Shown here one piece after another: positions 23,580-48,710 of a stretch of DNA of 64,000 nucleotides. Below the pieces are notes generated by a model. The model was given only the letters and a program-made list of their open reading frames with translations, was not told the origin of the DNA and searched no databases. Location: IMG/VR virus record IMGVR_UViG_3300026549_000030, positions 177,997-241,996 of that record; one strand, written 5' to 3'. The first letter of the stretch is position 1, and each line of letters opens with the position of its first letter. The position numbers and the translations under genes are program-made. Origin of the DNA: a virus (taxonomy: Duplodnaviria; Caudoviricetes).

Positions 23580-24398
23580 GCCTTTGCCTTTTATTTTATA
23601 GATAAATACCTTAATATAAGGTAAAGCAAGTAATATTGTAAACCGATTTTGAGGAAATTGGAATTTTTTTCCGGGAAAATTTTTTGAAAATGGTACCCTT
23701 TGAAAAAAGAAGGGGGTACCCCATGGAAAAATTCGAAAATTTTTCCGGAAATTCATGCGCGGCATTGCCCCCCGCCTTTTGGGTATTGACGGGCAGGGTA
23801 ACATAGGGGGGAGCTTACGTAGGGAGGGGTAGGGGGAGGGGCTCCCTCCGTGTGCCAAGACAGTGGATACGCCTCCACCCGGGTGAATATATTCTTTAAA
23901 ATACTCGAAGGCGCCGCATACGCAAGTGAATCTACAGTTTTTTTGTATCTGCACGAGAGGAGTGTCTTCCCAATCGCAATCCGTGACTGGTTTCTCAGAT
24001 AATCACCCAAATTTAGAAAATGCGGTGAAAAATGTCTTTGTAACATATTGATTTTCAACAACATACAAAACAGAAGAAAAACAGGAAAAATCTCGAAGTT
24101 TTGAACTTTATATTCGTTAAAATAATACAGCAGCGTGCATGGGCAAGTGTTTGTTTCAAAAAGTTAAGAGAAAGTCAGAGTGGGAATGGTTGATAGAGAT
24201 TCTGCGGAGATAATGTCTGAGATACTTGCGAGTGCGACGAACCTTCTTATTTTAAAGAATATATACAGCCATCTGCAGGCTGGCTCGGGCTTCGGAGAAA
24301 TTCAGCGAAAACGAAGAGAATTTTTTGAAAATCGCTGACATTTATTTGCGAATGTAAAACTAATTCACTATCTTTGTATGTAGATAAAGGAAGATATT

Positions 24399-24563
24399 AT
24401 GAAATGGTTATTCAAGACAATCGTTGACGGAGTAGTAAACACTTGCTACGAATTTGATAGTGAGGAGAAAGCCGAGAGGTGGAGAAAGAACTACATTGAG
24501 GAAATGAGAAAAATCGGTTGCTATCCGTTAAAGGGTTTGGAACTGAAAGTTGAACAAGCATAA
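24399..24563 (+). CDS. Small hypothetical protein (54 aa, below the ORF-track cutoff)
   Basis: ATG 24399 after a promoter, TAA 24561. Confidence 0.55.
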   Translation: MKWLFKTIVDGVVNTCYEFDSEEKAERWRKNYIEEMRKIGCYPLKGLELKVEQA

Positions 24564-24574
24564 AATTTATCGTT

Positions 24575-24892
24575 ATGATTAAGGAACACTTTTACGAGGA
24601 CATTGCACGAAAGTATCAGTTCGACAAACACATTTGGGAGGGTTGGACTGTAGGCGATTTCGTTGCAGAGTTGGAACCGAGCCTTGACAACATTATGGAT
24701 TTCAGTGAGAGCCGTGCATATTGTGAACCGAGATTGACTACCAAGGTAGAGATTAAGGATTGGGTGCGCAACAATCTTCCGTACACCACCAAGGCGCTGA
24801 ACGAAGTTACCAAGTATTTCGTGGACAAGTACAATGGAATGGCTATCTTCGATCCTGAAAAGCCGAACTGCATAGGGAAACTGAAACTTTAA
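24575..24892 (+). CDS. Hypothetical early protein
   Basis: Cassette gene followed by a terminator. Confidence 0.7.
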   Translation: MIKEHFYEDIARKYQFDKHIWEGWTVGDFVAELEPSLDNIMDFSESRAYCEPRLTTKVEIKDWVRNNLPYTTKALNEVTKYFVDKYNGMAIFDPEKPNCIGKLKL

Positions 24893-24915
24893 GGGAAACG
24901 ATATTTTTGAGAGAG

Positions 24916-24941
24916 GGCAATCCGAGAGGGTTGCCTTTTTT
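24916..24941 (+). terminator. Intrinsic terminator of the GGCAAYCC-GARA-GGGTTGCC family
   Basis: Related hairpins with T-tails near 27154, 28690, 29633 and 34655. Confidence 0.8.
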
Positions 24942-25265
24942 CGTATCTGTTTCCCATGAGGAGAGTCCTGAGGTGAACTGTAGTATATTCCTTAAAATAG
25001 ATGAAGGCGCCGCACGAGCAAGACTTCGGGGAGAAAATGCTGGGGCAATGGGTGGGTGGCAGTTTCTGAAAAAAAGTGAGCGACAGACTTGTCAGTGTCG
25101 TCGACGTGGATATTTTAAGGAATATATACAGCCAGCTGCAGCTGGTTATCAGGGCAGTCGGGCTTCGGGGCGTTGCTTCCAAAAAAAAGATGAACTTTTT
25201 TGCGCAGGGTATTGCATATGTAAAAAATAATGCGTATCTTTGAATAACAAAAGAAAAGAAAGAAT

Positions 25266-25652
25266 ATGGAAATCGTATCAATGAAGAAAGATTGTCTTGG
25301 GACAATGGAGTTCACGCTCAAGATTGGAAAGATGAAAAAGGCGGAGAGTTTTTGCACTTATCCAATACAAAAGGGCGATAGTGGGGATAAGGTGTATTTG
25401 CAGTCGCATCATCGTTGGGCGGAGTTGAACACGCAGACGGGCGAAATTATAATGTCAGCAAGAAGAGCGCAGTACGCGAACTCAATGTGGCTGCTTGAAT
25501 GTCGCATCAAGGGAACGGATGAAATCGACAAAGCGACAAGCGAACAACTTGAGCAGATGCTTTCAGCAATTCGGAAAACCGCAAGTCCAATGGCAGGTGG
25601 CAACAATATATTGTCAATGTTCTGCGACAATTCCAACGCAGGGTTAGTGTAG
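25266..25652 (+). CDS. Hypothetical early protein
   Basis: Promoter-gene-terminator cassette. Confidence 0.7.
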   Translation: MEIVSMKKDCLGTMEFTLKIGKMKKAESFCTYPIQKGDSGDKVYLQSHHRWAELNTQTGEIIMSARRAQYANSMWLLECRIKGTDEIDKATSEQLEQMLSAIRKTASPMAGGNNILSMFCDNSNAGLV

Positions 25653-26718
25653 GTTACTTCAGTTGGTTGGTAAAGTCCGTGCCGTATGGCGCGGATTTTT
25701 TTGCTACAGTGTTTTCGGGTGAGCCATAGTCGGAGAAAATTTTTGAGAAAGACTTGCGAGTGTCGCCAGGTGAAGTATTTTAAAGAATATATACACCAGC
25801 TGCAGCTGGTTATCAGGGCAGTAGGGCTTCTTTGCTTATAATATTGAGATGACATACCGTGGATACGTCTTTGCTGTCTGGAGTATATTCTTTAAAATAG
25901 CCAGAGGCATCGCATGGGCAAGAAAATAGACGGATAATTTGTGATAAAAAACTTAAATTAAATTTTGTAATGTTGATTATTTTTATTAAATTTGATGTAA
26001 ATTAAAAAGATAATAATATGAAAAAGAACGAGAAACTTTGCAACGAGTTCAAGGGATTGACTATCTACGATTCCGAGAACGAGCAGTTCCCCTACTTCGT
26101 GAAAGAGTGGGACGAGTGCTTCACCTACGAAGAAATTAAGGAACATTGGAGAGAAGATATGGACTTCGCCAACATTGACACGGAGCAGTAGCGCACGAAA
26201 GAAATGCCTTTGGATTACGGGCGACATTTTGGATAAGGTACCAAAATGTAGATAGCCACCCACCAAATCGGTGGGTGGTTTTCTTTTATCAGGGAGAGTA
26301 TCCTGAGTAGAACTGTAGTATATTCTTTAAAATAACAGAAGGCGCCACACGAGCAAGGGTTTGTTCAGAAAAGTGCATTTGGAAGCGTTAGGCGCAGTTT
26401 TTCTGTTCAGGGACTTGCAGATGCGGGTTCTTCATGTATTTTAAAGAATATAATGCGCCGCAGCGAGCGTGCTGAGGCTCTTGGCACAGTTTCACTCGAA
26501 TGACAGACAGAGATTCTTCTGAAATTTCTCGTTCAGCGACTTGCAGGTGTCGTCGATACAGGTATTTTAACGAATATATACAGCTGGCTGCAGGCTGGTT
26601 ATCAGGGATGGTCTGGCTTCATGAATCCGCGTTAAAAAAATTTCGCAAGGGTATTGCATAAGTAAAATATTATACTTATATTTGCATAAGGAAAGTTGAA
26701 CAATTAAATCAAGAGGAA

Positions 26719-27132
26719 ATGAACGTTTTTCAGTATTCTTCAGTAGTTGAGCAAAATTGGAAAGCCAATCTCGGAGATATGACGGATTGGAAACCGAGTT
26801 ACACTTTCTATAGCGATTTTGCTATAGCCGAGTTCTGCCAAGTTTGGCTGCGTGAGAATAACGCAGTCAAAAAAACCTACAACCAAGTTATCAAATCTTG
26901 GGGGAGCAACTACAAGGCTTTGACGGAAATCGTTATGGTGCTTAACCACAAATCGTGGGCATTTGCCAAGCCAAACCGAGTGGACGCAAAGTACCTCAAT
27001 GTCGGGGATTCGTGGGCGGACTATTTCGTAGAACTCTATAGCGAACTCTATAAGAAAGCGGACGCGCTTTACCGAAAGAAGTTTGCAAAGAACGAAACCG
27101 CTATGAGTTACTACTTTGATGTAACTGATTAG
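26719..27132 (+). CDS. Hypothetical early protein
   Basis: Promoter-gene-terminator cassette. Confidence 0.75.
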   Translation: MNVFQYSSVVEQNWKANLGDMTDWKPSYTFYSDFAIAEFCQVWLRENNAVKKTYNQVIKSWGSNYKALTEIVMVLNHKSWAFAKPNRVDAKYLNVGDSWADYFVELYSELYKKADALYRKKFAKNETAMSYYFDVTD

Positions 27133-27794
27133 TACTCGATTGAGTACAAGAAATGGCAATCCGAAAGGGTTGCCTTTTTTCGTTGGTACTACCGACAGAC
27201 TGTGGTGACGGGACTCAGGAGGTATTATATTCTTTAAAATAAGAAGGCTGCCTGCATGTGCAAGAGTTCAGAGAGGAAATCTGTACTCTACTGCCGTCAA
27301 TGCTGTTTTTCTCGTGGAACGACTTGCCGGTGCGGCGTCGTCATCTATTTTAAGGAATATATGGAGGCTGCCAAGACGTCTCGGGCTTCGATAGCGTGGC
27401 TTCCAACAGGGACTTACTGTAAATGCCAAAGAGAGTATCCTGAGGAGCGTGCAATATATTCTTTAAAATAATCCTTCGTCTGACTCATGCAAATTTTTCA
27501 AATGGAATTTTTCCATGAAAAATCTTAAGCGAAAACTTTAGTGGAAATTTGCCCATGCGGCGCCTTCCAGTATTTTAAGGAATATAATAACGGGCTGCCA
27601 CAGAATTGGGCTTCTTGAAAAAAAGTTAAAATTTTTTGAAAGAATCAGAGAGAAAATGGGTATAAATATATGTAAGCAACAAAGAAAAAAAAAACAAAGA
27701 AATTTTGCGCAAGGTATTGTATATGTAAAAATTATTTTGTACCTTTGTTGTCAGAAAGAGATAAGGAAGTATAACCAACAAACACACTACCACT

Positions 27795-28667
27795 ATGGCA
27801 AGAGCAATTGACGTGCGTTGCGGCAGCACCAAGAGCCGCACAATGGCTACCGAACTTTTCATGGCTGAAGCTCGCAAATATAACGTGCTTACGGCTGACG
27901 AAGAGCTTGAGCTTATCAACAAGGCGCAGGCAGGTGATGAATCCGCGAAAACCGCGCTCGTGAACCACAACCTCCGTTTCCTTTTCTCGCTCGCAAGCAA
28001 GTTCGCGAAGGGCGACGAGGCTATGGATTTAGTTTCCTACGCCACGATTGGCATGTACAAGGCAATAGACTCGTATGATGCCACTCGCGGACTACGTTTG
28101 CTTTCTTATGCCGTACATTGGATGCGTGCGGAAATTTCCGAATACTACAACGGTGACGCGCAACTTGTCCGCAATAAGCAGCAGTACAAAGTTGCCGCTC
28201 GCAGTGTACGCGTTAATGACAAGTTTTTCGCGGAAAACGGGCGGTATCCAAGCGAAGCGGAACTCGTTGAGATTCTGAACTCCGAATACAACCTAGAACT
28301 GAAAAAGCGCAGCGATGTCCTTCGCCACTCCTATACCTCCCTCAACTCCAAGATTGACGAGGACGGGGCAACTTTGGAAGAAATTGGAGAGGTTGCTATT
28401 GCTACCGCCTGCCACAATGAGGTGGAGGACTCGATTGAGTCCGAAGATAGGGCGCACACCCTCGAGAAACTCCTTTCCACACTCCCCCTGCGGAATCGTA
28501 TGATTCTCGAAATGTCTGTCGGAATGGGCGACTACGAGGGCATTGAACGCGATGACGATGCAATCGCAGTAGAACTCGGACTTACGAGGGAGAGAGTCCG
28601 TCAGATTCGCCTCAAGAGCCTTGCAACTCTGAAGGATAGAGCAAAGCGTATTCTCGCTACCGCATAG
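27795..28667 (+). CDS. Sigma70-family RNA polymerase sigma factor (regions 1.2-4)
   Basis: VLTADEELEL, LVNHNLRFL, DLVSYATIGMYKAIDSYD..RG.RLLSYAVHW, and region 4 IAVELGLTRERVRQI. Confidence 0.9.
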   Translation: MARAIDVRCGSTKSRTMATELFMAEARKYNVLTADEELELINKAQAGDESAKTALVNHNLRFLFSLASKFAKGDEAMDLVSYATIGMYKAIDSYDATRGLRLLSYAVHWMRAEISEYYNGDAQLVRNKQQYKVAARSVRVNDKFFAENGRYPSEAELVEILNSEYNLELKKRSDVLRHSYTSLNSKIDEDGATLEEIGEVAIATACHNEVEDSIESEDRAHTLEKLLSTLPLRNRMILEMSVGMGDYEGIERDDDAIAVELGLTRERVRQIRLKSLATLKDRAKRILATA

Positions 28668-29004
28668 ACTCGGTTGAGTCTGAAAGAAAGGGCAACCCGA
28701 AAGGGCTGTCTTTTTTTTTATGCTTTAGCTATCGACGGCGGAGTCGTATCCGACGCCTGTTTTATATTCCTTAAAATAACGAAGGAGCCTGCACCTGCAA
28801 GTCGCTCGAACAGAAATATTCATTCTATACACCCGTACTGCGGTTTTTATCAGGAGAGTCTTGTGGATGCGGGTTCACCATGTATATTAAGGAATATAAA
28901 CAGATGGCTACCAGCTTCTTCAACAGTTTGAGGCCATGTTAAAAATAAATTTGCACAATAGAAATATTATTCATATATTTGCAATAGATAAAGAGAAAAG
29001 AGTT

Positions 29005-29244
29005 ATGAAAATCAGAGTTGTTTCTTACAATGCGTACGAAGAATGGCACGAAGAAAAAATGGCTGAAGGTAAAGGAAAAGGTTTGTCCGAACTGACGGAT
29101 AAAGACTTTATGGAAATTTACAAGAAAGATGGCGCAAATTGGGAGTTTGATTCATTTCGAGCATTTGCAGATGAATTCAATTCTGACGGGCCGTTCGCTC
29201 CGACTCCATACGCGCATATTATCAGATTTTTCCCTAACGAATAA
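29005..29244 (+). CDS. Hypothetical early protein
   Basis: Start refined to lie after the promoter. Confidence 0.6.
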   Translation: MKIRVVSYNAYEEWHEEKMAEGKGKGLSELTDKDFMEIYKKDGANWEFDSFRAFADEFNSDGPFAPTPYAHIIRFFPNE

Positions 29245-29256
29245 AATATTTGGGCT

Positions 29257-30341: not shown

Positions 30342-30619
30342 AGCATATCCTTTGGTGCCGAAACGAAATCCGTGCAGAAATGTACGGATTTTTTTGTTGG
30401 AATACTTGCGAGTGCCGTCGTCTGTAGTTTTTTAATGAATATAAAGACGGGCTGCCACTGTTCTCTCCTGTTGAATTGCCTCAACCTCCTGAGAAGCGTG
30501 CGATGTATTCTTTAAAATAAATCACGCTCTGGCATCCACAAATTTTCTTCTCATGTAAAAATAAATTTGGATATGTGAAATTTAATGTTTATCTTTGCAA
30601 TAGATAAAATAAAAGAAAT

Positions 30620-31090: not shown

Positions 31091-31302
31091 AATTTGGTAG
31101 AGTTACCAAGGCAGATAGAGCCACCGAGAAATCGGTGGTTTTTTTATTCCCGTACTTGTGAGTGCGGCTCCTTCTGTTATTTTAAGGAATATAAACAGTT
31201 CAGGATACCTGTTGAACAGCCTCTTCAAAAAAAATGAAAATAAATTTTGATATGTAGAAAATTATGTATATATTTGCAAGTAGATAAATCAAGAAAGAAG
31301 AC

Positions 31303-31524
31303 ATGAAAGCAGAAGAAATTTTTATGACACTTGCGCCTATGATTAGCACCACTGACGGAAAGGTGGCATATTTGCGAATCGGTAAGGGACTTGCCTATGG
31401 AAAGGTTTGGTGCGACTATGTTCGTGCTGACAATGGAGAAAGGATTTATCTTCAAAATAAGTTCTATCCGACTTTGGAAGAATCCATAAGCGCACTCTAC
31501 GATGTAGTAGTAAAAAGCAACTGA
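31303..31524 (+). CDS. Hypothetical early protein
   Basis: Cassette gene. Confidence 0.6.
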   Translation: MKAEEIFMTLAPMISTTDGKVAYLRIGKGLAYGKVWCDYVRADNGERIYLQNKFYPTLEESISALYDVVVKSN

Positions 31525-31525
31525 C

Positions 31526-31837
31526 ATGAAAAAGGCAATCGTTAATGTAGAATATACAAAGAATTGGGCGAATGATGGCTATGACACATATTCTACAAAG
31601 GACTACAAGAAGATCGCTGAACTTGATTTTCCGACAAAGGACAGAAGTGAGTTCCGCGTGTACAAGGGTGACGGATATGGTGCATACGATTTGAACTACA
31701 CAACCTATCCGACTTTGCCTATGGCTATGCAGGGCGCAGAGCAGGCGTGCAAGTCTTTTCTCCTTAACAAGAAACGCTATGTTGAAAAGTTCAACTATCC
31801 GCAGGAAACAAACGAATCGCTCAAAATGGGCGACTAA
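31526..31837 (+). CDS. Hypothetical early protein
   Basis: Cassette gene. Confidence 0.65.
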   Translation: MKKAIVNVEYTKNWANDGYDTYSTKDYKKIAELDFPTKDRSEFRVYKGDGYGAYDLNYTTYPTLPMAMQGAEQACKSFLLNKKRYVEKFNYPQETNESLKMGD

Positions 31838-32241
31838 TACTTTGCGTCTCTATCAAAATGGCACTCCGAGAGGGGTGCTTTTTTTTGCTTGAGTTCTTGC
31901 CCGTGCGACAAACCTGATTATTTTAAAGAATATAATTACAGTGGTTCTCGAAGCATGGACAGGGCTCCTCAGATACGTCGGCGTGATATATTCTTTAATA
32001 TACGCTGCGATCTGGCATGGGCAAATTTTCCACGATGAAAAAAAATGAAAATAATTTTGCAATTGTAAAATAAAACACATATATTTGCAATAAGAAAAAT
32101 ACACAAATATGACACAAGCTGAATTAGATTTTTTAACGAGAACCCCAAGACTTCTCAATGCAATGGTGGATGAGCTTAAAAAGCTTAACGAGAATATCAA
32201 GAAACTCACCGAAAAGGTTGAAAACCTGGAGGATTAACTCT

Positions 32242-33188: not shown

Positions 33189-33377
33189 ATGGAAAAAACT
33201 TTCACAATTCACTACGGATACCAAAATGGAAATTCTCGGTATCATTACAAAGTCCGCATTATGTGTGAGGAAAGCAAGGTAAAGGAAATCTCCAAGGCGG
33301 TTGCCAATGGAGAACGTGTCGATTGGTGCTACGTTGAGGGCGAGAACTATCGTTTAACAATTTGTGATTGTATGTAA
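33189..33377 (+). CDS. Small hypothetical protein
   Basis: After a promoter. Confidence 0.55.
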   Translation: MEKTFTIHYGYQNGNSRYHYKVRIMCEESKVKEISKAVANGERVDWCYVEGENYRLTICDCM

Positions 33378-33378
33378 T

Positions 33379-33726
33379 ATGGAAAATCTTAATCGCATAG
33401 AAATCCAAGGTACTCTTGGTAGAATCAGCACCACAATGGTAGGCGGCAAGCTCCACGCAAATTTTGCAGTGGCTACCAACTGTGCATACAAGGATGCAAG
33501 CGGAAATGCCGTACTTGAAACAACGTGGCATAGAATATCAGCCTTTGAGAGCGAAAAAATTTCTGCCGAAACTCTCAATGAAATTCGCAAGAAATATGCG
33601 GAGAAACGCGACTTTGTATATGTAAGGGTTGTGGGCAGACTGCGCCAAATAAGGTATGTTGATACCAATGGTGTCAGTAACTTAACCTATGAGGTAAAAG
33701 CAAACGAGGTGGAAATTTTGAAATAA
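33379..33726 (+). CDS. ssb: Single-stranded DNA-binding protein (OB fold, no acidic tail)
   Basis: LNRIEIQGTLG, ANFAVATN, TTWHRISAFE, VRVVGRLRQ..Y.D..G. Confidence 0.85.
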   Translation: MENLNRIEIQGTLGRISTTMVGGKLHANFAVATNCAYKDASGNAVLETTWHRISAFESEKISAETLNEIRKKYAEKRDFVYVRVVGRLRQIRYVDTNGVSNLTYEVKANEVEILK

Positions 33727-34005: not shown

Positions 34006-34113
34006 AAAAAGTGAAAAAAAATTGACAAAATGTTTGGATATTTGGAATTAAATCCCTATCTTTGCATTGTAAGAAAAAGAAACCATAAGTCAAACCAAAA
34101 AAAGAGAGAAGAA

Positions 34114-34581
34114 ATGAAGAAATTCAATCTCACGGGCAACACCGCAGTATGGGACGCCCTTCGCGTAGAGGCAACGAACAATGGTAAGGGACGCACCGAG
34201 AAGCTTTCCGCAATCCCCGATGGCAAAGTCCTCACTGTTTCCCTGCTTGACGGGTTCGACCCCGCCAATCCTTCCACCGAGGGAATCTCCGAGAACAATA
34301 GCTCCTACGTTTTCCGCAAGGGACGCAAGCGCAATTTCCTGCTCCGCTACAACGGAGTGTGCGTAGGGTGGGCAACTTTCCACCGCGCAGAGCGCAACTA
34401 TGACGTGGCAGTCAGCGCAACCTTCAGCTCCGTAGTGTCCGTCAAGGCAAAGTCCGCAGAGGAAGCCGAACGCAAGGCGGTTGAGAGCCTTGAATCCGCA
34501 GTCGCAGAGTACAACGCCACCGCAGAGGTTCCGATTACTCTTGACTACTACGAGGTGGACGCAACCGAAAGTTGGGAGTAG
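34114..34581 (+). CDS. Hypothetical early protein (C-terminal V.A.SAEEA module)
   Basis: Start refined; module also seen in 39713, 42575, 44817 and 46874. Confidence 0.7.
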   Translation: MKKFNLTGNTAVWDALRVEATNNGKGRTEKLSAIPDGKVLTVSLLDGFDPANPSTEGISENNSSYVFRKGRKRNFLLRYNGVCVGWATFHRAERNYDVAVSATFSSVVSVKAKSAEEAERKAVESLESAVAEYNATAEVPITLDYYEVDATESWE

Positions 34582-34908
34582 TCCAAAGTCAAACAACCGA
34601 TTGAAGAAAAGTCCTATGTAAAACCAAAATGAAGGCATTTGGCAATCGGCAGAGAGCAACCCGAAAGGGTTGCTTTTTTTTTGTTGATACTTGTGGGTGC
34701 GAGCGCCCCCGTTATTTTAAGGAATATATTCCTCCTTCACCTATGTCACTCTCAGAGAACTCTCAGGACGACGCCGCGTGTATATTCTTTAATAAACTCA
34801 CCTTCGTCACACCGGCAAGGATCTGACCAGGTAAAAAAAAATAAAAATAAATTTGCAAATTAAAATTATTTTCCCTATCTTTGCATTGAACAATAAAAGA
34901 GAATTATT

Positions 34909-36529: not shown

Positions 36530-36838
36530 ACACACTTCTTTTCTATAATAACTCTCTTTTTGAAAGACGCATCCAAATCGGGTGCGTTTTTCTGTTTTAT
36601 CCCTTGCCCGTGCGACGAAGGCATCTATATTAAGGAATATAACGGTGAAGAAGGAGCCAATGGAGCTGGTGGACCGACGGCGGATACCTGTCCTGCGGCG
36701 GGATTATATTCTTTAATAAACTGTCGGATCCGGCATCTGCAAAAATTTCCGCCACAAATATTTTATAAATTTGTGTCAAATAAATTTGCAAATTAAAATA
36801 AAAAGTCCTATCTTTGCATTGAACAAAAAACAGGTATT

Positions 36839-39646: not shown

Positions 39647-39712
39647 AAAAAATTGCATATTCCAAAATTTAATCTTATCTTTGCAATAGAAACCAATTAA
39701 AAACAAAGTATT

Positions 39713-40066
39713 ATGAAAATTACGAAAGAGCAAATCAAGGCGGCAGAACAGGTGCTTATTGACAACGGCATTGAGGCTGACGATGTGAAAACCGTCCTTC
39801 AGGAAATCGGATGCACCCTTCTCGATGAGAAACTCTATCCGGAAGAAGAAACAGAGGACGCACCAAAGACGCAGAAATTCACTTTCCGTTTTCACACTCA
39901 CGGTTGGACTGATATTACCGTTGAGGCGGAGGATGAAGAAGAAGCTGAAGAGCTTGCAAACGACAAATATAACAACGGTGACTACGATGATTCCGATTCG
40001 GATTTTGAGAACACCGATATGGAGAACGTAACCGACTACTACGTTGAGAACAACATTCCACAATAG
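39713..40066 (+). CDS. Very acidic hypothetical protein
   Basis: Cassette gene. Confidence 0.65.
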   Translation: MKITKEQIKAAEQVLIDNGIEADDVKTVLQEIGCTLLDEKLYPEEETEDAPKTQKFTFRFHTHGWTDITVEAEDEEEAEELANDKYNNGDYDDSDSDFENTDMENVTDYYVENNIPQ

Positions 40067-40343
40067 TAAAATTCGCTCTTATGAAAAGTCCGAGGCAGAA
40101 ATGCTTCGGATTTTTTTTGCTTCGGCCTTGCCCGTGCGACGAACCTGAATATTTTAACGAATATACTACGGTTCTGAGAACAGGGGCTGCCGTCGATAAC
40201 CAGCCTGCAGCTGGCTGTTTATATTCCTTAAAATACGCTGCACGCTCGCATCCACAAGAAATTCACTGTAAAAATAAACAAAAATAAATTTGCAAATTAA
40301 AATTATTCTTATTACCTTTGCCATGAACAAAAGAAACAAAGAA

Positions 40344-40862: not shown

Positions 40863-40874
40863 AAGTTTAAAGAT

Positions 40875-41915: not shown

Positions 41916-41923
41916 AAATCAAA

Positions 41924-42562: not shown

Positions 42563-42574
42563 AAAAATAAACTA

Positions 42575-42763
42575 ATGGCTAAATTTTCTGTTAAAGTGCA
42601 CTACGAAACTTTCTGCTATCGCGAGGTTGAGGCAGAAAACCGCAATGAAGCCTACGACAAGGCTTGTACAGCTATCGACGCGTCCACTGATGAGGAATTC
42701 GAGAAAGAAATCGTACGTAACCTCACCAACGTTCACGACCCAGAAATCTACAAAATAATCTAA
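42575..42763 (+). CDS. Small hypothetical protein
   Basis: Cassette gene. Confidence 0.6.
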   Translation: MAKFSVKVHYETFCYREVEAENRNEAYDKACTAIDASTDEEFEKEIVRNLTNVHDPEIYKII

Positions 42764-43287
42764 TGTAATTTATTGTACAAATCAATTTGACTAATGCTAA
42801 ATCCGTAAAAAGTTTCACCTCGCTTCATCGCCTTCATTAAATGTTCGCGTTTGCATCCGAAAAATTGCTCAGCAATGTATTGGTTATCGAATTTAATTTC
42901 AACACCTTCTTTCTTACAAATTATATGCTTTTCAGCAATTTTTCTTTGAGATTTTTTTACATGTTCCAAACTTAACGAATTATTTGAATTTTCTTTTGGC
43001 GATACCCATCTTAAGTTATCAACTGAATTATTTAAAATATCAGTATCAATATGATCAACGTTTGGCTTATTTTCCGGATTTGGTATGAAATATTGAGCAA
43101 CAAGACGATGTATTAAATGCCTTTCTACTACTTTCCCTTTTTTATACAATGCAATTTGTAAATATCCTTGAGATTGTTTTGCACCTTTAAGTTTTTTTAA
43201 ACCGCGATTTTTACCGCACATCTTATATACAAATCCATCATTCCCGATGTAATAATTTGTAAACCCAGTTATTTGTTTTATTTCCAT
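42760..43287 (-). CDS. HNH homing endonuclease (NUMOD4/HNH_3 type), antisense insertion
   Basis: IHRLVAQYFIPNPENKPNVDHIDTDILNNSVDNLRWV; AT-rich; the only minus-strand CDS in the block. Confidence 0.9.
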   Translation of the reverse strand: MEIKQITGFTNYYIGNDGFVYKMCGKNRGLKKLKGAKQSQGYLQIALYKKGKVVERHLIHRLVAQYFIPNPENKPNVDHIDTDILNNSVDNLRWVSPKENSNNSLSLEHVKKSQRKIAEKHIICKKEGVEIKFDNQYIAEQFFGCKREHLMKAMKRGETFYGFSISQIDLYNKLH

Positions 43288-43351
43288 AACATATCAAATA
43301 TACTAATAAATATCTAATTAAATCAAAATAAACTAATAAAATTTCACGAAT

Positions 43352-44221
43352 ATGGATACAATGTTACATTTCAACAACGATTCGCTTCACCGTCCTATGA
43401 CTAAGGACGAAATCCGTCAGAAGGCTCCCTACATTTTCGCAGAAGGTGCCACCAACCCCGGCGTGTCCGACAGGTACGTTTTCGCCAACACCGAGACGAT
43501 TATCGACGATATGGAGAAACTCGGGTGGGACGTGGTAGACTGCAAACAGCAGCGTCCGAACAAGCGCAGCAGTGTGCGAAGCTTCCATATGGTTGCCTTC
43601 CAGAACAAGAACGTCTATATCACCAAGACGAATGCCGACGGTACTGAGAGCATTGATTGCTTCCCTCGTATCATCCTCACCAACTCACACGACGGATTCA
43701 ACTCCTTTAAATTTATGGTAGGACTCTTCCGCCTCGTGTGCTCCAACGGACTCGTGGTTGCCACCGAAACCTTCGCCAACGTCGCAATCAGGCATATCAA
43801 CTATACCTTCGACGAACTCCGCGAAATCGTCGCCAAGGCAATCTTCAACGTTTCCGACAACATTAAGGTGATGAACGAAATGCAGAACACCGTTCTTACC
43901 TATGAGCAGAAACGCGCTCTCGCTAACGAGGCAATGCGTATCCGCAACAACAGTAGCGACGACGAGGACGAGAAGCCTGTCGAGCTCTCCGACGAGGACG
44001 CCGAGGATATCCTCTCTCCTCTCCGCGAAGAGGACAAGGGCGACGACCTGTGGACAGTGTTCAACCTCCTGCAGGAGAAAATCATCAAGGGCAGCTTCAA
44101 AATGCTCTCCCCCACCAACGGCAAGACGCGTAAAGCACGCCCTATCACGGGAGTCGCTCGTGACATTGAAATCAATCAGGCTCTGTTCCTGTATGCCTCC
44201 GAGCTCCGCCTCGCAGCATAA
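43352..44221 (+). CDS. DUF932/DUF945-family protein
   Basis: SDRYVF..TETII, PRIILTNSHDG..SFKF..GLFRLVCSNGLV, DLWTVFN..QE. Confidence 0.8.
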   Translation: MDTMLHFNNDSLHRPMTKDEIRQKAPYIFAEGATNPGVSDRYVFANTETIIDDMEKLGWDVVDCKQQRPNKRSSVRSFHMVAFQNKNVYITKTNADGTESIDCFPRIILTNSHDGFNSFKFMVGLFRLVCSNGLVVATETFANVAIRHINYTFDELREIVAKAIFNVSDNIKVMNEMQNTVLTYEQKRALANEAMRIRNNSSDDEDEKPVELSDEDAEDILSPLREEDKGDDLWTVFNLLQEKIIKGSFKMLSPTNGKTRKARPITGVARDIEINQALFLYASELRLAA

Positions 44222-44494
44222 CTCTCTCTACCTCAACCGAATTGGACTGCAGAAATGCAGTCCTTTTTTTTTTTTGTTGCCAAGCTTGCCGGTGTCGCCG
44301 CGAAGGTTTTATTATAGAATGTAGAAGCTGGTGACCCGAGCCTCTCCTCCTGGTGGTCTGCACGCTGTACATTCTATAAAAAAACAGAACAGTTCGCATC
44401 CACAAATAAATTTTCCTGTAAAAAAAAAATCGAAATAAATTTGGATATTAAATTTATTATCCCTATCTTTGCAACGTAATCAAAGAGAAACATT

Positions 44495-44815
44495 ATGAAG
44501 ACAATTACAGTTAAAATCAGTAAGGAAAAGAATTGGGCGGGTAACGAATACCTTATCTATTCTTCCGAACAGCACGGCAAGCTCGCAGAGGTTGACTATC
44601 CTATCAAGAGCGACCCGTACAGAAAACGTCCGCGTGTTTACGGTACAGAAGAAAACCCTGTCATTATCGAGGGTGCCAACGGTTGCAACTTCGTCGAATT
44701 TAGCGGTGTACCTCAGGCACTGGTTGGTGCCGAAACCCTGTGCAAGGGTATTCTCCATGGACGTGGCTACGAAACTGTAGTCTTCGACTATCCCCGAACC
44801 ATTAAAATGAAATAA
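44495..44815 (+). CDS. Hypothetical early protein
   Basis: Cassette gene. Confidence 0.65.
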   Translation: MKTITVKISKEKNWAGNEYLIYSSEQHGKLAEVDYPIKSDPYRKRPRVYGTEENPVIIEGANGCNFVEFSGVPQALVGAETLCKGILHGRGYETVVFDYPRTIKMK

Positions 44816-44816
44816 T

Positions 44817-45020
44817 ATGGCAAAGTTCAGAGTAACGCGCCCCGTAATTGTCACTACCACTGACATTTGGGAAGCAGAAAACGAGCAGGAAATTTGGGAC
44901 AGGCTCAACAATAAAAAGTCCCTCGCAGGTGAAATTTCAGAGTTGGGAATCGGAAATGTCCCTGACAGAACTGTCAAATACGAATTCCTCAACGACAAAG
45001 TAGAAAAGTTAAGCAATTAA
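44817..45020 (+). CDS. Small hypothetical protein
   Basis: Cassette gene. Confidence 0.55.
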   Translation: MAKFRVTRPVIVTTTDIWEAENEQEIWDRLNNKKSLAGEISELGIGNVPDRTVKYEFLNDKVEKLSN

Positions 45021-45032
45021 TTTTCGAATATT

Positions 45033-45452
45033 ATGTGCCTCTACATTAAAAAGGATACCAAGAGAATGCGTGCTGAGAATGACATTCTCGTATACAAGAA
45101 CCTCGACTACAGCCGCCGTACCGGGTATTGCACCCCTTATCAGTACATGCGTGTTGAATTCAACGAACTTGGGCGGGCTAAACTCACGAGCAAGATTGAA
45201 CGCATCAAGGGCGTTATCGACAGGGCTATCCACTCGTACTACAACGAAAAGATTGCAAAAGAAACTTCACTCGAGTCTAAGTACGATTACGGCACTCGTA
45301 CCAAGCTCGCAGTGATTCCCAAGGGTTCGCTCTACTACATAGGCGACGACGGAGATGTAGCCTCAACGCAGCTTTACATCTTCAAGACAAAGAAAGCCCT
45401 TGACGAGTGGAAAGAGGGAAGGGATCCGGGATTTGACAAAATTCCTGCATAA
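45033..45452 (+). CDS. Hypothetical protein, MCL-family paralog 3
   Basis: See 30620. Confidence 0.75.
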   Translation: MCLYIKKDTKRMRAENDILVYKNLDYSRRTGYCTPYQYMRVEFNELGRAKLTSKIERIKGVIDRAIHSYYNEKIAKETSLESKYDYGTRTKLAVIPKGSLYYIGDDGDVASTQLYIFKTKKALDEWKEGRDPGFDKIPA

Positions 45453-45528
45453 AAATTTGGATATTAAAAATTAATTCCCTATCTTTGCACCCGTAGACTC
45501 GAATGAGTATATTTTAAAGATTATTAAT

Positions 45529-45789
45529 ATGGAAAAGTTATATTCAGTCAAATTACCCTCAACAGGCAAGTATATACTGTGGTGCGATGAGCACTGGTAT
45601 GAAACCACCCCTGAGCCGTATCCTTTCTTTGAAAAGGAGCAGGCGGAAGCAATTGTCAAGCAGCTTCGGAACCACTACACATACAACGCTGTCGTGGTTG
45701 ACGCACAGGGCAACGAAATCAACAAACCCAAGGTATCTCCCATTAAGGAGTTCACCGAGGAAAAGAAATCATTCTTCAGGAAATTTTAA
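45529..45789 (+). CDS. Hypothetical early protein
   Basis: After a promoter. Confidence 0.6.
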   Translation: MEKLYSVKLPSTGKYILWCDEHWYETTPEPYPFFEKEQAEAIVKQLRNHYTYNAVVVDAQGNEINKPKVSPIKEFTEEKKSFFRKF

Positions 45790-45810
45790 CAATTAAAAAA
45801 ATTAAGCAAT

Positions 45811-46668
45811 ATGGAAACCAACAAGACTACCAAAAAGGACATTTATCAGATTGACCCGCGCAACATCGTCGTGCAGGAAGGCTTCAACTCCCGTGTCGAT
45901 TTCGGCGACATTGACGAGCTTGCCTCCCAGATTCGTGAACAGGGCGTTCTGAACCCTATCACCGTCATTCCTTTCACCACGGAAGATGGAGCCGAGAAAT
46001 ATCGCCTTGTGGATGGAGAGCGCCGCTACCGCGCAACTATGAAACTCATTGAAAGCGGATTCGAGATCCCGCGCATCCCCGCGCTCTTCCAGCCCAAGTC
46101 AACTTCCAAGGAGGATATGTTCATTCAGCAGCTTATGCGAAACGAGGGCAAGCCTTTCTCCGAGTACGAGTACGGTATCGCGTTCCAGAAGTTCCAGAAG
46201 TTCGGCTACAGCAACGCAGACATTGCCAAGAAGCTCGGCGTCAAGCAGTGGAAGGTTGACTGCTTCCTTGCCCACCTCAACCGTGACGAGAAGGTGCAGG
46301 AGCTTATGAAGGACGGGCGTATCACCGGTGTTGACGTGCGTCATATCTACCAGGCCGCCAAGAACGAGCAGGCAGCCGTCAAGGAAATCCTCAAGCTGGT
46401 TGACAAAGCTGAGGGTAAGGGTGAGAAGAAGGTATCCCTGAAGGACTTGGATATGGATTCCGCCTACAGTGTCGCCAAGGAAACCGCCGCCGTAAAGAAG
46501 GGCCTGGGCATTCTGTTCAACTACATTAAGACATACACCCACAACGGTGCTATCAACCTCGGTATCGGAGTGGACGATGTGTACACCGCAATCACAAAGG
46601 GCGGAAAGAACCTCAAAGAAGTGTTTGAGTCCGCACAGAGAACTGCAATGCAAAAGAAGGCAGAGTAA
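45811..46668 (+). CDS. ParB/Srx-family protein with an HTH
   Basis: IDELASQIREQGVLNPITV...YRLVDGERRYRA; SNADIAKKLGV HTH. Confidence 0.85.
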   Translation: METNKTTKKDIYQIDPRNIVVQEGFNSRVDFGDIDELASQIREQGVLNPITVIPFTTEDGAEKYRLVDGERRYRATMKLIESGFEIPRIPALFQPKSTSKEDMFIQQLMRNEGKPFSEYEYGIAFQKFQKFGYSNADIAKKLGVKQWKVDCFLAHLNRDEKVQELMKDGRITGVDVRHIYQAAKNEQAAVKEILKLVDKAEGKGEKKVSLKDLDMDSAYSVAKETAAVKKGLGILFNYIKTYTHNGAINLGIGVDDVYTAITKGGKNLKEVFESAQRTAMQKKAE

Positions 46669-47056
46669 AAGCTACTGATTAATCAGGAAAAGGAAGGTAT
46701 CACTACAGTGGTGCCTTTTTTTGTTTCCTGAAACTCGAAGTCGGTGAAGCCCTATATTCGTTAAAATACGCCGCACGCTCGCATCTGCAAATAAATCGAC
46801 GGTAAAAAAAAATGAAAATAAATTTTGATATTAAATTTATTTCATCTATCTTTGCATCAAATAAAGCAATATTATGAAAACATTTGAAGTAACACTTTTC
46901 GTATTGGGGCTGCCTTTTTCAAAGGAAAACACAAGGACAGTTGAAATAGAAGCTAATTCGCAGGAAGAAGCTGAACAGAAAGCCCACGATTGGTATGTAT
47001 CCGATGGGTGGGGAGTTTACGATTCCAAAGAAATAACCGAATAAAACAATAGTATT

Positions 47057-47560
47057 ATGAAAGAAAAAGCTGTACCTGTTGGTATATTCCAAAACGAAAT
47101 TTTCATTGCCCGTTATAAGGATGGAGAACTTTCTGCACTACCGTTCAATTTCGACGTTATCCGTCCTGTTGAGGCGAGCGTCCTCCAGGATCTCCGCGAC
47201 CCTGATTCTTACCAGGACTATTGCGAGGACTTGTGGAAAGGCGCAGTCCAAGCAGGGGCTACAAAGCTGGGACTTCGCGAATACGCGGAGCAGTGCATAG
47301 ACGAAGCAGATTGTCTAAACGACGATGAAGCTTTCCCTGGTAAGGACGATAGCGGTTGCGAGTATCTTACCCCGGAACTCAGAGAGGAAGCCGACAACTA
47401 CCTTTTGAACGAGTGCGGCGTTGAGGTTGGAACGTGGGAATGTTCAGGCTCTTTCTGCCCCAACTCTTTCTACAAGAACTTCAAGAAGTTCGACTATGTG
47501 TTCGACAACGATGCCGCCCGTAAAGCTGCAGAGGACTACTACAAGAAAATAGCTAAATAG
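47057..47560 (+). CDS. Hypothetical early protein
   Basis: Cassette gene. Confidence 0.7.
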   Translation: MKEKAVPVGIFQNEIFIARYKDGELSALPFNFDVIRPVEASVLQDLRDPDSYQDYCEDLWKGAVQAGATKLGLREYAEQCIDEADCLNDDEAFPGKDDSGCEYLTPELREEADNYLLNECGVEVGTWECSGSFCPNSFYKNFKKFDYVFDNDAARKAAEDYYKKIAK

Positions 47561-47850
47561 TGTTTTCCATATTTTTTGTTCAAAGAAGCAGTCTCATAAA
47601 TGAGGCTGTTTTTTTTGCTTCAGTACTTGCGGGTGCGGAGCCCGTGTATTTTTTAAGGAATATAATTACCTGGTTTACAGATAAAACCGTCTTGGCTACA
47701 GAACCAGCTTCCGCTGTCTACAGTATATTCGTTAAAATACGCCTCGACGCCGCACTGGCAAATTTAACTCATGAAATTAAATTGCAAAATAAATTTGGAT
47801 ATGAAATTTATTCTTCTTATATTTGCATTGAACAAAACACACATAGCAAT

Positions 47851-48093
47851 ATGGAAAAGGAAATTCAGAACATTTTAAGCGGCTACAAACGCATTGGTGC
47901 CACAAAGGTTAGCACGAGTAATAGCGGAGTTACAATCAACGCCCATGAAGCCACAAATGAGGTTATGGGGCTTGCATCCACTAAAATTCTCAACAAGTAT
48001 CCAGACTTTGAAATTATCTATTGGACGGGGCAGTTTCAGACTTGGGTATTCACCCGTAGGACACTTCGTTACGCAGGATATAACGTAAAATAA
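47851..48093 (+). CDS. Small hypothetical protein
   Basis: Start refined to lie after the promoter. Confidence 0.6.
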   Translation: MEKEIQNILSGYKRIGATKVSTSNSGVTINAHEATNEVMGLASTKILNKYPDFEIIYWTGQFQTWVFTRRTLRYAGYNVK

Positions 48094-48104
48094 CAAACAA
48101 GGCT

Positions 48105-48365
48105 ATGACAAAAGAAGAAACCCTTCAGGTAATCAACGAGATTATCGATGAATCCACAAAGGCTATGAAAGCCGAGGCAAAGCAGCTCCTTGACGCGCAG
48201 GAATGGGACTTTGACACTTTCAACGATAGGAACACCTTCGCCCGTACTGCAATGGAAGTTATCTTTGATAAGGAAAAGGCTCAGTACGCCGCTATCAACA
48301 ACACAAAGGCATACAAGCAGTTGAAAGCTAATCTCGCTTACGAACTCGCCTTTATCCACGTATAA
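48105..48365 (+). CDS. Small hypothetical protein
   Basis: Cassette gene. Confidence 0.6.
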   Translation: MTKEETLQVINEIIDESTKAMKAEAKQLLDAQEWDFDTFNDRNTFARTAMEVIFDKEKAQYAAINNTKAYKQLKANLAYELAFIHV

Positions 48366-48710
48366 CCTATTCCACAACCATTGAAATCCTGTACAAAAGT
48401 GCAGGATTTTTTTGTACCCGTACTTGCCGGTGCGACGAAGACAAGTTTATTAAGGAATATAAACCCGCGATCCATGCTGGTATCATCGCCTGCAGACCAG
48501 CGATCCATGCTGGTTGATATATTCGTTAAAATAACGCTTCCTCCCGCACCTGCAAGTATCCTCTCAATAAAGTGTTAAATTCTACACATTAGCCCCTGTT
48601 TTTGCCATTAACAGGTGTTTTTCTACACGTTATAAATTTCCTGAAATAAATTTGCAAATTAGAATTTAATTCACTATCTTTGTACTACAAGCAAGCAATA
48701 CTATGGAACC

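What the first reader, a model, noticed from the sequence alone, without database searches (positions are those of the whole stretch)
23888..48557. 39 copies of a rigid 40-bp bipartite intergenic motif punctuate a 25-kb gene-cassette array
Seen: TTGY-N2-RTGY, then exactly 12 variable bp, then TATTTTAAGGAATATA-like. There are 20 forward and 19 reverse copies, all between a terminator and the next host-type promoter, and I found none outside 23.9-48.6 kb. Most occur as inverted pairs 44-93 bp apart. The fixed 12-bp spacer with free sequence implies protein recognition of two half-sites. Hypotheses (inference): site-specific recombination sites that shuffle cassettes (integron-like); centromere-like sites for the ParB-like protein at 45811; promoters for the sigma factor at 27795 (TTG-hexamer, 16 bp, TATTTT); or docking sites used during DNA entry or protection.
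Basis: partly seen in the sequence, partly recalled or inferred. Interest (0 to 1): 0.88.

Follow-up and report, generated by a model that had tools for sequence, protein, structure and literature searches.

The report
Phage-specific promoter-like motif in early-gene array
A giant phage of Bacteroidota punctuates its 25-kb early-gene array with 39 copies of a 40-bp two-part motif that looks like a promoter class for the phage's own sigma factor; half of the copies point against the genes, which is unexplained.

Summary
A weight-matrix scan of the whole 242-kb phage contig finds 39 sites, 20 forward and 19 reverse. All lie at window 23888-48557 and none lie elsewhere.

The motif is a T-tract, then aCTTGCnnGTGCG, then 11 free GC-rich bases, then TATTTTAAnGAATATA. 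It has the architecture of a Bacteroidota promoter (TTG, 19 bp, TAnnTT). It differs from the host -7 element TAnnTTTG at -6/-5 and is conserved on to about +4.

It follows a strict grammar. Forward copies sit 5-11 bp after each terminator. Reverse copies sit 22-40 bp back-to-back with the host-type promoter of the next unit.

The motif recurs around homologues of the array's RpoD-like sigma factor (39-96% identical) on seven kinds of related metagenomic contig, with lineage-specific changes. Orthologous sites evolve about nine times slower at the conserved positions than in the spacer.

Best reading (0.58): promoters for a phage-encoded sigma factor, in sense and antisense.

Integron-like recombination, ParB centromeres and hairpin sites are not supported. 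The repeats do serve as crossover points for homologous cassette shuffling, like T4 PeSLs. No transcription data could be obtained.

The parts
23888..48557 (+). Early-gene array of about 20 transcription units, all genes on +, each with a host-type (Bacteroidota) promoter and an intrinsic terminator; all 39 motif copies lie here
27795..28667 (+). RpoD-like sigma factor (290 aa; regions 1.2, 2 and 4), the candidate reader of the motif
   Evidence: Pfam and PHROG hits; homologues flanked by the motif family; region 2.4 and 4.2 comparison
23888..23927 (-). motif copy R
   Evidence: 49.9 bits
24109..24148 (-). motif copy R
   Evidence: 42.0 bits
24224..24263 (+). motif copy F
   Evidence: 47.9 bits
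24984..25023 (-). motif copy R
   Evidence: 46.2 bits
25087..25126 (+). motif copy F
   Evidence: 41.6 bits
25752..25791 (+). motif copy F
   Evidence: 47.0 bits
25884..25923 (-). motif copy R; crossover partner of 26319 in a cassette indel against L131
   Evidence: 46.0 bits
26319..26358 (-). motif copy R; crossover partner of 25884
   Evidence: 43.8 bits
26413..26452 (+). motif copy F
   Evidence: 46.4 bits
26539..26578 (+). motif copy F
   Evidence: 43.7 bits
27226..27265 (-). motif copy R
   Evidence: 43.3 bits
27322..27361 (+). motif copy F (upstream of the sigma gene)
   Evidence: 51.7 bits
27455..27494 (-). motif copy R
   Evidence: 33.0 bits
27547..27586 (+). motif copy F (upstream of the sigma gene)
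   Evidence: 49.7 bits
28763..28802 (-). motif copy R
   Evidence: 48.2 bits
28859..28898 (+). motif copy F
   Evidence: 42.0 bits
29672..29711 (+). motif copy F, 11 bp after a terminator
   Evidence: 44.5 bits
29796..29835 (-). motif copy R, 30 bp from a host-type promoter
   Evidence: 39.1 bits
30404..30443 (+). motif copy F
   Evidence: 39.9 bits
30504..30543 (-). motif copy R
   Evidence: 39.0 bits
31154..31193 (+). motif copy F (no R partner)
   Evidence: 46.1 bits
31895..31934 (+). motif copy F
   Evidence: 47.9 bits
31987..32026 (-). motif copy R
   Evidence: 43.0 bits
33012..33051 (+). motif copy F (no R partner)
   Evidence: 45.7 bits
34689..34728 (+). motif copy F
   Evidence: 51.9 bits
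34781..34820 (-). motif copy R
   Evidence: 42.1 bits
36602..36641 (+). motif copy F
   Evidence: 44.9 bits
36705..36744 (-). motif copy R
   Evidence: 37.1 bits
39077..39116 (-). motif copy R (no F partner)
   Evidence: 45.3 bits
40126..40165 (+). motif copy F
   Evidence: 47.5 bits
40220..40259 (-). motif copy R
   Evidence: 45.8 bits
42027..42066 (+). motif copy F (no R partner)
   Evidence: 43.4 bits
44284..44323 (+). degenerate motif copy F
   Evidence: 28.1 bits
44368..44407 (-). degenerate motif copy R
   Evidence: 26.2 bits
46753..46792 (-). motif copy R (no F partner)
   Evidence: 47.1 bits
47625..47664 (+). motif copy F
   Evidence: 46.0 bits
47724..47763 (-). motif copy R
   Evidence: 49.2 bits
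48422..48461 (+). motif copy F
   Evidence: 46.8 bits
48518..48557 (-). motif copy R
   Evidence: 46.1 bits
32976..33051 (+). Example of the fused terminator-F module (hairpin, T-run, then the motif 6 bp later)
   Evidence: (family D4)
31987..32087 (.). Example of the back-to-back R / host-type promoter module (29 bp between them, shared A/T tract)

Best explanation
The 40-bp motif is a second, phage-specific class of promoter in the early-gene array of a Bacteroidota jumbo phage. It is most likely read by host RNA polymerase core carrying the phage-encoded RpoD-like sigma factor at 27795-28667, which is itself made from a host-type promoter in the array. The TTG at motif positions 3-5 would be the -33/-35 element. 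TATTTT at positions 25-30 would be the -12..-7 element, so transcription would start near position 37. The upstream T-tract would act like an UP element. Forward copies, fused 5-11 bp behind each terminator, would restart sense transcription of the next unit once the phage sigma factor is present. Reverse copies sit back-to-back, 22-40 bp from the host-type promoter of the next unit. They would fire against the genes, giving RNAs antisense to the 3' end of the previous unit, and would compete with the neighbouring host-type promoter or with the facing forward copy. What the reverse copies achieve is inferred, not shown. As repeated sequences, the motif, the host-type promoters and the terminators also serve as crossover points for homologous recombination that shuffles cassettes. 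Shown here: the anatomy, the grammar, the purifying selection, the co-occurrence with the sigma clade and the recombination footprints. Inferred: that it is a promoter, which sigma factor reads it, and what the reverse copies do.
For: (1) Architecture. TTG, 19 bp, then T-12 A-11 T T T-8 T-7 matches the Bacteroidota -33/-7 layout TTTG/TAnnTTTG (PMC6847099) and the host-type promoters of this same array, which use 20-bp spacing. It differs exactly at -6/-5, AA in place of TG, so the two classes are discrete.
(2) A T-tract at -14..-8 is present in both orientations.
(3) The gene at 27795 is a bona fide sigma-70 family protein with regions 1.2, 2 and 4. No phage RNA polymerase was found in 242 kb, but four sigma-like genes were.
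(4) Co-occurrence. Contigs encoding homologues of this sigma factor at 96, 68, 67, 51, 51, 42 and 39% identity all carry the motif family around the gene, with lineage-specific changes: GTGCG, GAGYC, TTGCG, TwCCA or TTACCA in the upstream block, and AAnG, ATAG or AnnY in the core. The skeleton TTG-N19-TwTwTTA-N3-AAT is kept.
(5) Sigma region 4.2 (RERVRQ) is conserved, as is the TTG. Region 2.4 of all motif-bearing lineages reads YAVH[WY]MRAEISEY, against YAVWWIRQAI in cellular Bacteroidota sigma factors. This parallels a -10-like block that differs from the host's but is shared among the lineages.
(6) Purifying selection. Conserved positions show 0.017 substitutions per site, against 0.146 in the spacer and 0.148 in the flanks, across 12 orthologous sites (Fisher p = 8e-8 against the spacer and 5e-12 against the flanks).
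(7) Grammar. F lies 5-11 bp after terminators in 12 of 13 cases, as expected of a restart promoter at each operon boundary. Motif copies occur only at operon boundaries, not before internal genes, which have host-type promoters only.
(8) The sigma gene itself has two F copies upstream.
Against: There are no transcript data. Nineteen of 39 copies point against all genes and have no minus-strand gene to serve. The motif is absent from the other 217 kb of the contig. A sigma factor that reads only promoters inside its own array would be unusual, although 32% of the genome is missing. Conservation runs over 16 bp from -12 to +4, longer than a usual -10 element. The lineage-specific block at positions 7-14 lies where T4 MotA boxes lie, so an activator rather than sigma may set specificity. 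In 7 of 39 copies the -11 position is T rather than A.
Confidence: 0.58

Rival explanations
1. The motif is an operator or upstream regulatory site for a phage DNA-binding protein other than sigma, such as a repressor, an activator or a MotA-like co-activator. This protein would act on the adjacent host-type promoters or terminators largely independently of orientation. The promoter resemblance would be partial or coincidental.
For: Both orientations are used about equally. R sits at a fixed 22-40 bp from host-type promoters. The lineage-specific block at positions 7-14 changes faster than the sigma-like elements. The motif is confined to the array it would regulate.
Against: No DNA-binding domain other than sigma and the ParB-like protein was found among about 33 of the 44 array proteins scanned. 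Sigma is the only protein shared by all motif-bearing fragments. The two blocks have promoter spacing and -12/-11/-8/-7 identities. F and R are distinct directional subtypes with orientation-specific positions, which is not what an orientation-free site predicts.
Confidence: 0.2
2. The motif is a recombination signal: integron-like, a transposon-end-like terminal inverted repeat, or an RSS-like bipartite signal with a fixed spacer. A dedicated enzyme would cut or exchange it to move cassettes.
For: The layout is bipartite with a fixed free spacer. In the right-hand part of the array each unit is flanked by outward-facing inverted copies. Cassette content and order are mosaic between relatives. 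One clean indel has its crossover inside the motif.
Against: No tyrosine or serine recombinase and no rve or DDE_Tnp_1 transposase occurs in 242 kb. Homology-block ends are not enriched at the motif (5 of 50 against 8.8% coverage), but are enriched at host-type promoters (8 of 50 against 4.6%) and terminators (4 of 50 against 2.5%). The closest strain differs by an indel bounded by two host-type promoters, not by motifs. No inversions appear on any of about 25 related contigs. In the left-hand part of the array the copies face inward. Ordinary homologous recombination between repeats explains all the footprints.
Confidence: 0.07
3. Forward and reverse partners pair in RNA or single-stranded DNA to form long hairpins. 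These could be RNase III processing sites as in T7 early mRNA, attC-like folded sites, or Frpo-like single-strand promoters.
For: Most copies occur as inverted pairs. The gene content resembles plasmid leading regions: SSB, ParB-like, DUF932 and DpnD/PcfM.
Against: Partners are no more alike at the variable positions than random F x R combinations, 0.24 against 0.31. Position 33 differs systematically between F and R. Several copies have no partner within 140 bp, and pairs come in both convergent and divergent order. Terminators precede F, so little read-through RNA would contain both arms. No covariation exists within the motif and there is no Rfam match.
Confidence: 0.05
4. The motif copies are centromere-like or clamp-loading sites for the ParB-like protein at 45811-46668.
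For: A ParB_N + HTH_ParB protein is encoded in the array. KorB-type ParB proteins regulate many promoters on plasmids (my own knowledge, not tested here).
Against: The site is strongly asymmetric and bipartite, not a parS-like palindrome. The copies are spread over 25 kb. No homologue of the ParB-like protein was found on the six motif-bearing related fragments, though these are partial.
Confidence: 0.03

Closest known systems
Promoters of phage-encoded sigma-70-family factors that redirect host RNA polymerase (SPO1 gp28 and gp33/34, T4 gp55, phiEco32/7-11 gp36; PMC8948821 for the last, the others from my own knowledge)
   Same: The phage lacks its own polymerase in the known 68% of the genome and carries several sigma genes. 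The motif is a discrete consensus, distinct from the host's, with two blocks at promoter spacing. It changes together with the sigma lineage.
   Different: Known phage sigma factors switch on middle or late genes elsewhere in the genome. Here the motif is confined to the early array that encodes the sigma factor. Half of the copies are antisense, and they are arranged in strict convergent or divergent pairs. The sigma factor is a homologue of the unusual Bacteroidota primary sigma type, not a minimal factor like gp28 or gp55.
PeSLs, the promoter-early stem-loop cassettes of T4-type phages (PMC2839356, PMC4122927)
   Same: Both are composite terminator-plus-promoter modules between small ORFan genes in a hyperplastic region. 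Both are repeated tens of times. Both are used as crossover points for homologous recombination that inserts, deletes and reorders cassettes.
   Different: PeSL promoters are host sigma-70 early promoters in the sense orientation only. Here the host-type promoter is a separate element, and the 40-bp motif is an additional, non-host consensus present in both orientations. Mini-circles were not tested.
Face-to-face convergent promoters with transcriptional interference (coliphage 186 pR/pL, 62 bp apart; my own knowledge, not checked in a paper here)
   Same: Here two promoter-like sites face each other 44-93 bp apart, on the reading that both are promoters. The two members are of different subtypes, as expected if their strengths differ.
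   Different: In phage 186 this is a single developmental switch. Here there are 11 such pairs in one array plus 6 divergent pairs, and no lysogeny decision is evident.
Integron attC cassette arrays
   Same: Both are arrays of small, same-strand cassettes separated by imperfect inverted repeats of 120-170 bp overall.
   Different: Here there is no integrase. Partner arms are not selected for complementarity. Every cassette has its own promoter and terminator, and breakpoints are not specific to the motif.

Membership tests
Sigma-70-family (Bacteroidota-type) promoter | Two conserved blocks at -33/-35 and -12..-7 with fixed spacing | tested here: met
   TTG at positions 3-5 and TATTTT at 25-30 are separated by 19 bp in all 39 copies. 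The host-type promoters of the same array use 20 bp.
Sigma-70-family (Bacteroidota-type) promoter | T-12, A-11 and T-7 identities of the -10/-7 element | tested here: met
   T25 occurs in 39/39 copies, A26 in 32/39, T29 in 39/39 and T30 in 39/39. The host positions T-12 A-11 T-8 T-7 T-6 G-5 are taken from PMC6847099.
Sigma-70-family (Bacteroidota-type) promoter | Host -7 element ends in TG at -6/-5, required for host sigma recognition | tested here: not met
   The motif has AA at -6/-5 in W, and A at -6 in all lineages. It is therefore not a host-type promoter but a distinct class.
Sigma-70-family (Bacteroidota-type) promoter | Lies upstream of a gene in the sense orientation | tested here: inconclusive
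   The 20 F copies meet this; the 19 R copies do not.
Sigma-70-family (Bacteroidota-type) promoter | Transcription starts 6-8 nt downstream of the -10 element | not testable with these tools
Sigma-70-family (Bacteroidota-type) promoter | A cognate sigma factor is encoded and co-varies with the motif | tested here: met
PeSL regulatory cassettes | Terminator stem-loop fused to a promoter in intergenic spaces of a plastic region | tested here: met
   The T-to-F gap is 5-11 bp in 12 of 13 cases.
PeSL regulatory cassettes | The promoter is a strong host sigma-70-type early promoter | tested here: not met
   The motif differs from the host consensus. The host-type promoter is a separate element 50-130 bp downstream.
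PeSL regulatory cassettes | Crossovers between copies generate cassette indels | tested here: met
   The R site of L131 is chimeric between W 25884 and W 26319. A P-P indel separates W from L228.
Integron (attC/attI with IntI) | Adjacent tyrosine-recombinase integrase | tested here: not met
   PF00589 is absent from 242 kb, and the control genomes gave matches.
Integron (attC/attI with IntI) | Imperfect palindrome that folds, with arms complementary | tested here: not met
   Partner identity at variable positions is 0.24, against a 0.31 background.
Integron (attC/attI with IntI) | Promoterless cassettes expressed from one Pc | tested here: not met
   Each unit has its own promoter and terminator.
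parS / ParB centromere | Short palindromic site | tested here: not met
   The 40-bp site is asymmetric.
Invertible promoter switch (inverton) | Inverted repeats with a site-specific recombinase, and both orientations present in the population | tested here: not met
   No recombinase was found. No inverted segments appear on related contigs, including a 96-98% identical strain.

The most novel reading that the evidence does not exclude
Each boundary of the early-gene array carries a matched pair of phage-sigma promoters of two subtypes. One restarts sense transcription directly behind the terminator. The other fires backwards from a fixed position beside the host-type promoter. Once the phage sigma factor appears, about 19 antisense RNAs and head-on polymerases would simultaneously silence host-sigma-driven early expression while the forward copies take it over. 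This would be an array-wide, sigma-triggered sense/antisense switch that has not been described for any phage.
Probability: 0.25. Interest if true: 0.75.

Novelty: new variant of a known kind. Interest (0 to 1): 0.52.

Why it matters
Transcription programmes of Bacteroidota phages, and of uncultured jumbo phages generally, are almost unknown. This finding gives a concrete and testable sigma-promoter pair: a 290-aa phage homologue of the unusual Bacteroidota primary sigma factor, and a 40-bp consensus that differs from the host promoter at defined positions (-6/-5 and -3..+4). It comes with natural specificity variants from seven related lineages (eight with this phage). That could yield orthogonal expression parts for Bacteroides or Prevotella. 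It could also show how sigma-AB-type factors read the -7 element. The strict pairing of sense and antisense copies at every operon boundary would, if transcriptionally active, be a new way of timing early-gene expression. The array also shows PeSL-like modular shuffling outside the T4 group. Its cargo resembles plasmid leading regions and anti-defence loci.

Tried and rejected
- An exact 16-mer scan of IMG/VR gave only single chance hits. The full bipartite pattern found two unrelated single hits. megablast of the array against GenBank phages found nothing. A single-protein locus search with sigma in IMG/VR found nothing. A profile search gave only relatives at or below 35% identity, without the motif. 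Close relatives exist only on ENA, Logan and JGI metagenome contigs.
- A hairpin within the motif is rejected: no covarying, complementary column pairs.
- Pairing between F and R partners is rejected.
- A conserved small RNA between partners is not supported. The downstream segments are mostly unrelated, with 93 singletons of 159. In L137 the 72-nt linkers do fall into two conserved families. Rfam found nothing.
- T7-like RNA polymerase (PF00940) was not found, but the control genomes gave no match either, so that search is uninformative. The multisubunit polymerase domain PF00562 is absent, with valid controls.
- Pfam, PHROG and Atlas searches of the small array proteins gave almost no annotation.

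Full report
**Where the window lies.** The window is the last 64 kb of a 241,996-bp IMG/VR virus contig that CheckV rates 68% complete.

The host is a member of the Bacteroidota. This is inferred from the gene-proximal promoters, which read AAATAAATTTGCA, then about 17 bases, then CTATCTTTGCA. That is the -33/-7 consensus TTTG/TAnnTTTG, and no Shine-Dalgarno sequence is present. Both are documented traits of the phylum (PMC6847099). Strict matches to this promoter concentrate at contig 200-230 kb, which marks the region as the early, host-transcribed part of the genome.

Elsewhere, genes are preceded by a different short motif, nTATTTATA. It occurs in 26 of 204 upstream regions, against 1.9 expected.

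**Checking the observation.** The 16-bp core occurs 45 times with up to 3 mismatches, against 2.2 expected. A 40-column weight matrix scanned over the whole contig returns exactly 39 sites, 20 on + and 19 on -, at window 23888-48557. Nothing else scores above 15 bits.

Column statistics show these features:
- TTG at positions 3-5, G at position 11, and TATTTTAA.GAATATA at positions 25-40 are invariant or nearly so.
- An 11-12-bp spacer is free in sequence but GC-rich.
- A T-tract lies at -14..-8 in both orientations.
- Conservation ends sharply after position 40.
- No column pair shows complementary covariation, so the motif itself is not a hairpin.

**Surroundings and grammar.** All genes of the array are on the + strand, and they have strong + strand intrinsic terminators. 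The order of elements is strictly regular over about 20 transcription units:

| Transition | Gap (bp) | Consistency |
|---|---|---|
| terminator to F | 5-11 | 12 of 13 |
| R to host-type promoter | 22-40 | 12 of 13 |
| terminator to R | 28-43 | |
| R to F | 52-75 | |
| F to R | 44-93 | |

In the left part of the array (23.9-29 kb) the order is T-R-F-P-gene. In the right part it is T-F-R-P-gene. Internal genes of multi-gene units have a host-type promoter only. The motif therefore marks operon boundaries, not every gene.

F and R are not the same site flipped. In each genome they are distinct subtypes. In this window F reads aCTTGc..GTGCggc and R reads a.TTGc..aTGcg.g. In L137, F reads TTTGgaaTTACcA and R reads TTTGtTTTTaCC.

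**The sigma factor.** The ORF at 27795-28667 has sigma-70 regions 1.2, 2 and 4 and matches PHROG sigma families. Its closest cellular homologues are sigma-70-family proteins of about 290 aa from Bacteroidota, at 31-32% identity.

The contig encodes three further sigma-like proteins. No multisubunit RNA polymerase domain was found. The search for a T7-like polymerase had no valid control.

**Relatives.** Homologues of the sigma factor from metagenome assemblies were traced to their contigs.

| Contig | Sigma identity | Motif variant |
|---|---|---|
| L131 | 96% | same motif as the window |
| L222 | 67% | aCTTGYnnrTGYg..TTTwTTATAGAATrTA |
| L132 | 68% | CTTGYnnGAGYC..TwTTTTATAGAATrTA |
| L133-136 | 51% | TTTGCTTTTGCG..TATTTTAnnyAATA |
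| L140 | 51% | ATTTGsAnATwCCA..TATTTTAkAGAATATA |
| L137 | 42% | ATTTGkwwTTACCA..TATTTTAAkGAATATA |
| L221 | 39% | ATTTGGyAATsTCGG..TATATTAAkCAATrTa |

Both orientations and the terminator-F fusion recur in these lineages. The skeleton TTG-N19-TwTwTTA-N3-AAT is constant.

Two more distant sigma homologues (39% and 37%) sit in different gene contexts and have no motif on the fragments available. IMG/VR relatives at or below 35% identity also lack it.

In the sigma alignment, region 4.2 (RERVRQ) is conserved, in parallel with the constant TTG. Region 2.4 reads YAVH[WY]MRAEISEY in every motif-bearing lineage, against YAVWWIRQAI in cellular Bacteroidota sigma factors. That parallels a -10-like block shared by these phages but different from the host's.

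Sigma is the only protein shared by all motif-bearing fragments.

**Selection.** For 12 orthologous sites between the window and L131, the conserved positions changed at 0.017 per site. The spacer changed at 0.146 and the flanks at 0.148. The two half-sites are therefore under strong purifying selection, while the spacer drifts at the neutral intergenic rate. This is the signature of protein recognition with a length-constrained linker.

**Recombination.** Cassette content and order are mosaic. Protein identities between the same two contigs range from under 40% to 96%, and the order of homologues is swapped in places.

A crude count of the ends of long homology blocks gives these figures:

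| Element | Block ends (of 50) | Share of the region |
|---|---|---|
| motif | 5 | 8.8% |
| host-type promoters | 8 | 4.6% |
| terminators | 4 | 2.5% |

The motif is therefore not a privileged breakpoint.

Two clean events were resolved:
- A 96-98% identical strain (L228) lacks window 31278-32039. The junction lies in two host-type promoters.
- L131 has a chimeric R site. Its left flank matches window 25884 and its right flank matches window 26319, so the crossover lies inside the motif.

No contig shows an inversion relative to the window. The 242-kb contig has no tyrosine or serine recombinase and no rve or DDE_Tnp_1 transposase. All four searches had valid controls.

This is the pattern described for PeSL cassettes of T4-type phages, where repeated promoter-terminator modules serve as sites of homologous exchange (PMC2839356; PMC4122927).

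**Hairpin models.** Partners of a pair are no more alike at the variable positions than random F x R combinations, 0.24 against 0.31. Several copies have no partner within 140 bp. Terminators stand in front of F. Rfam finds nothing. RNase III-type, attC-type and Frpo-type readings are therefore unlikely.

**Interpretation.** The best-supported reading is a phage-specific promoter class. It is derived from the Bacteroidota promoter layout and most likely read by the array-encoded sigma factor. Forward copies would be restart promoters fused to terminators.

The reverse copies remain unexplained. If active, they would give RNAs antisense to the 3' end of the preceding unit. They would also face the forward copy, as the convergent pR/pL pair does in coliphage 186 (my own knowledge). 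And they would share an A/T tract with the divergent host-type promoter. Antisense transcription used for temporal control has been reported in a virulent phage, though there it is directed against late genes (PMC4933390).

No transcript data could be obtained.

A regulator-binding site is the main rival. Site-specific recombination, ParB binding and hairpin formation are each disfavoured by tests done here.

**Verdict.** The feature is real, highly non-random and conserved. It is a new variant of known kinds: phage sigma-dependent promoters embedded in PeSL-like regulatory cassettes. It has one unusual and unexplained property, the strict sense/antisense pairing. Another window of this scan noted the same element on this same stretch (finding e1-5708664).

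Noticed in passing
window 24300-49000 (for example 34844-34885, 36777-36827, 40281-40320): About 28 near-identical host-type promoters (AAATAAATTTGCAAATT..N..CCTATCTTTGCATTGAAC) stand in front of almost every gene of the array. This is far more uniform than a consensus needs, and it suggests concerted evolution or recombination between them.
   Followed up: partly
whole contig outside the array (for example G000:C1 42093, 74735, 105241, 163609): A second promoter-like motif, nTATTTATA, lies 10-40 nt before start codons, with no -35-like partner. It occurs in 26 of 204 upstream regions, against 1.9 expected. It is the reverse complement of the T4 late box TATAAATA and probably serves one of the other phage sigma factors.
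   Followed up: partly
G000:C1 7405-8268 (-), 17485-18198 (-), 131643-132356 (+): Three more sigma-like genes. One is a second RpoD-like protein of 287 aa whose region 4.2 has lost the RERVRQ motif. One is a 237-aa protein with regions 2 and 4. One is a weak hit to region 2 only.
   Followed up: partly
window 33364-33726, 34030-34581, 39713-40066, 43352-44221, 45811-46668: The few annotatable array genes are an SSB, two DpnD/PcfM-like proteins, a DUF932 protein and a ParB-like protein. Relatives carry an EcoRI-type methylase and a GmrSD_N protein at the corresponding place (L133, L137). This cargo resembles the leading regions of conjugative plasmids and anti-defence islands.
   Followed up: no
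window 42760-43287 (-): An HNH_3 endonuclease gene is the only minus-strand gene inside the array. It is likely a homing endonuclease insertion.
   Followed up: no
L137 644-748, 1445-1549, 5646-5750, 14053-14157 and 841-944, 3725-3827, 12605-12707: In the 42% sigma lineage the segment between the F and R cores is almost always 71-73 nt. These segments fall into two sequence families conserved between copies. A related segment occurs in the opposite orientation in this window (30444-30503). No function is known.
   Followed up: partly
window 24575-24892, 25266-25855, 26719-27159: Long open reading frames run on both strands over the same stretches (105/85, 128/148 and 137/139 aa). GC skew here is unusually high (+0.25). 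The minus-strand frames lack promoters and terminators and are probably not genes.
   Followed up: no
window 23800-23870 (minus strand): An odd C-rich tract (...ggagggagcccctccccctacccctccc...) lies just downstream of the leftmost R copy, at the boundary with minus-strand genes.
   Followed up: no
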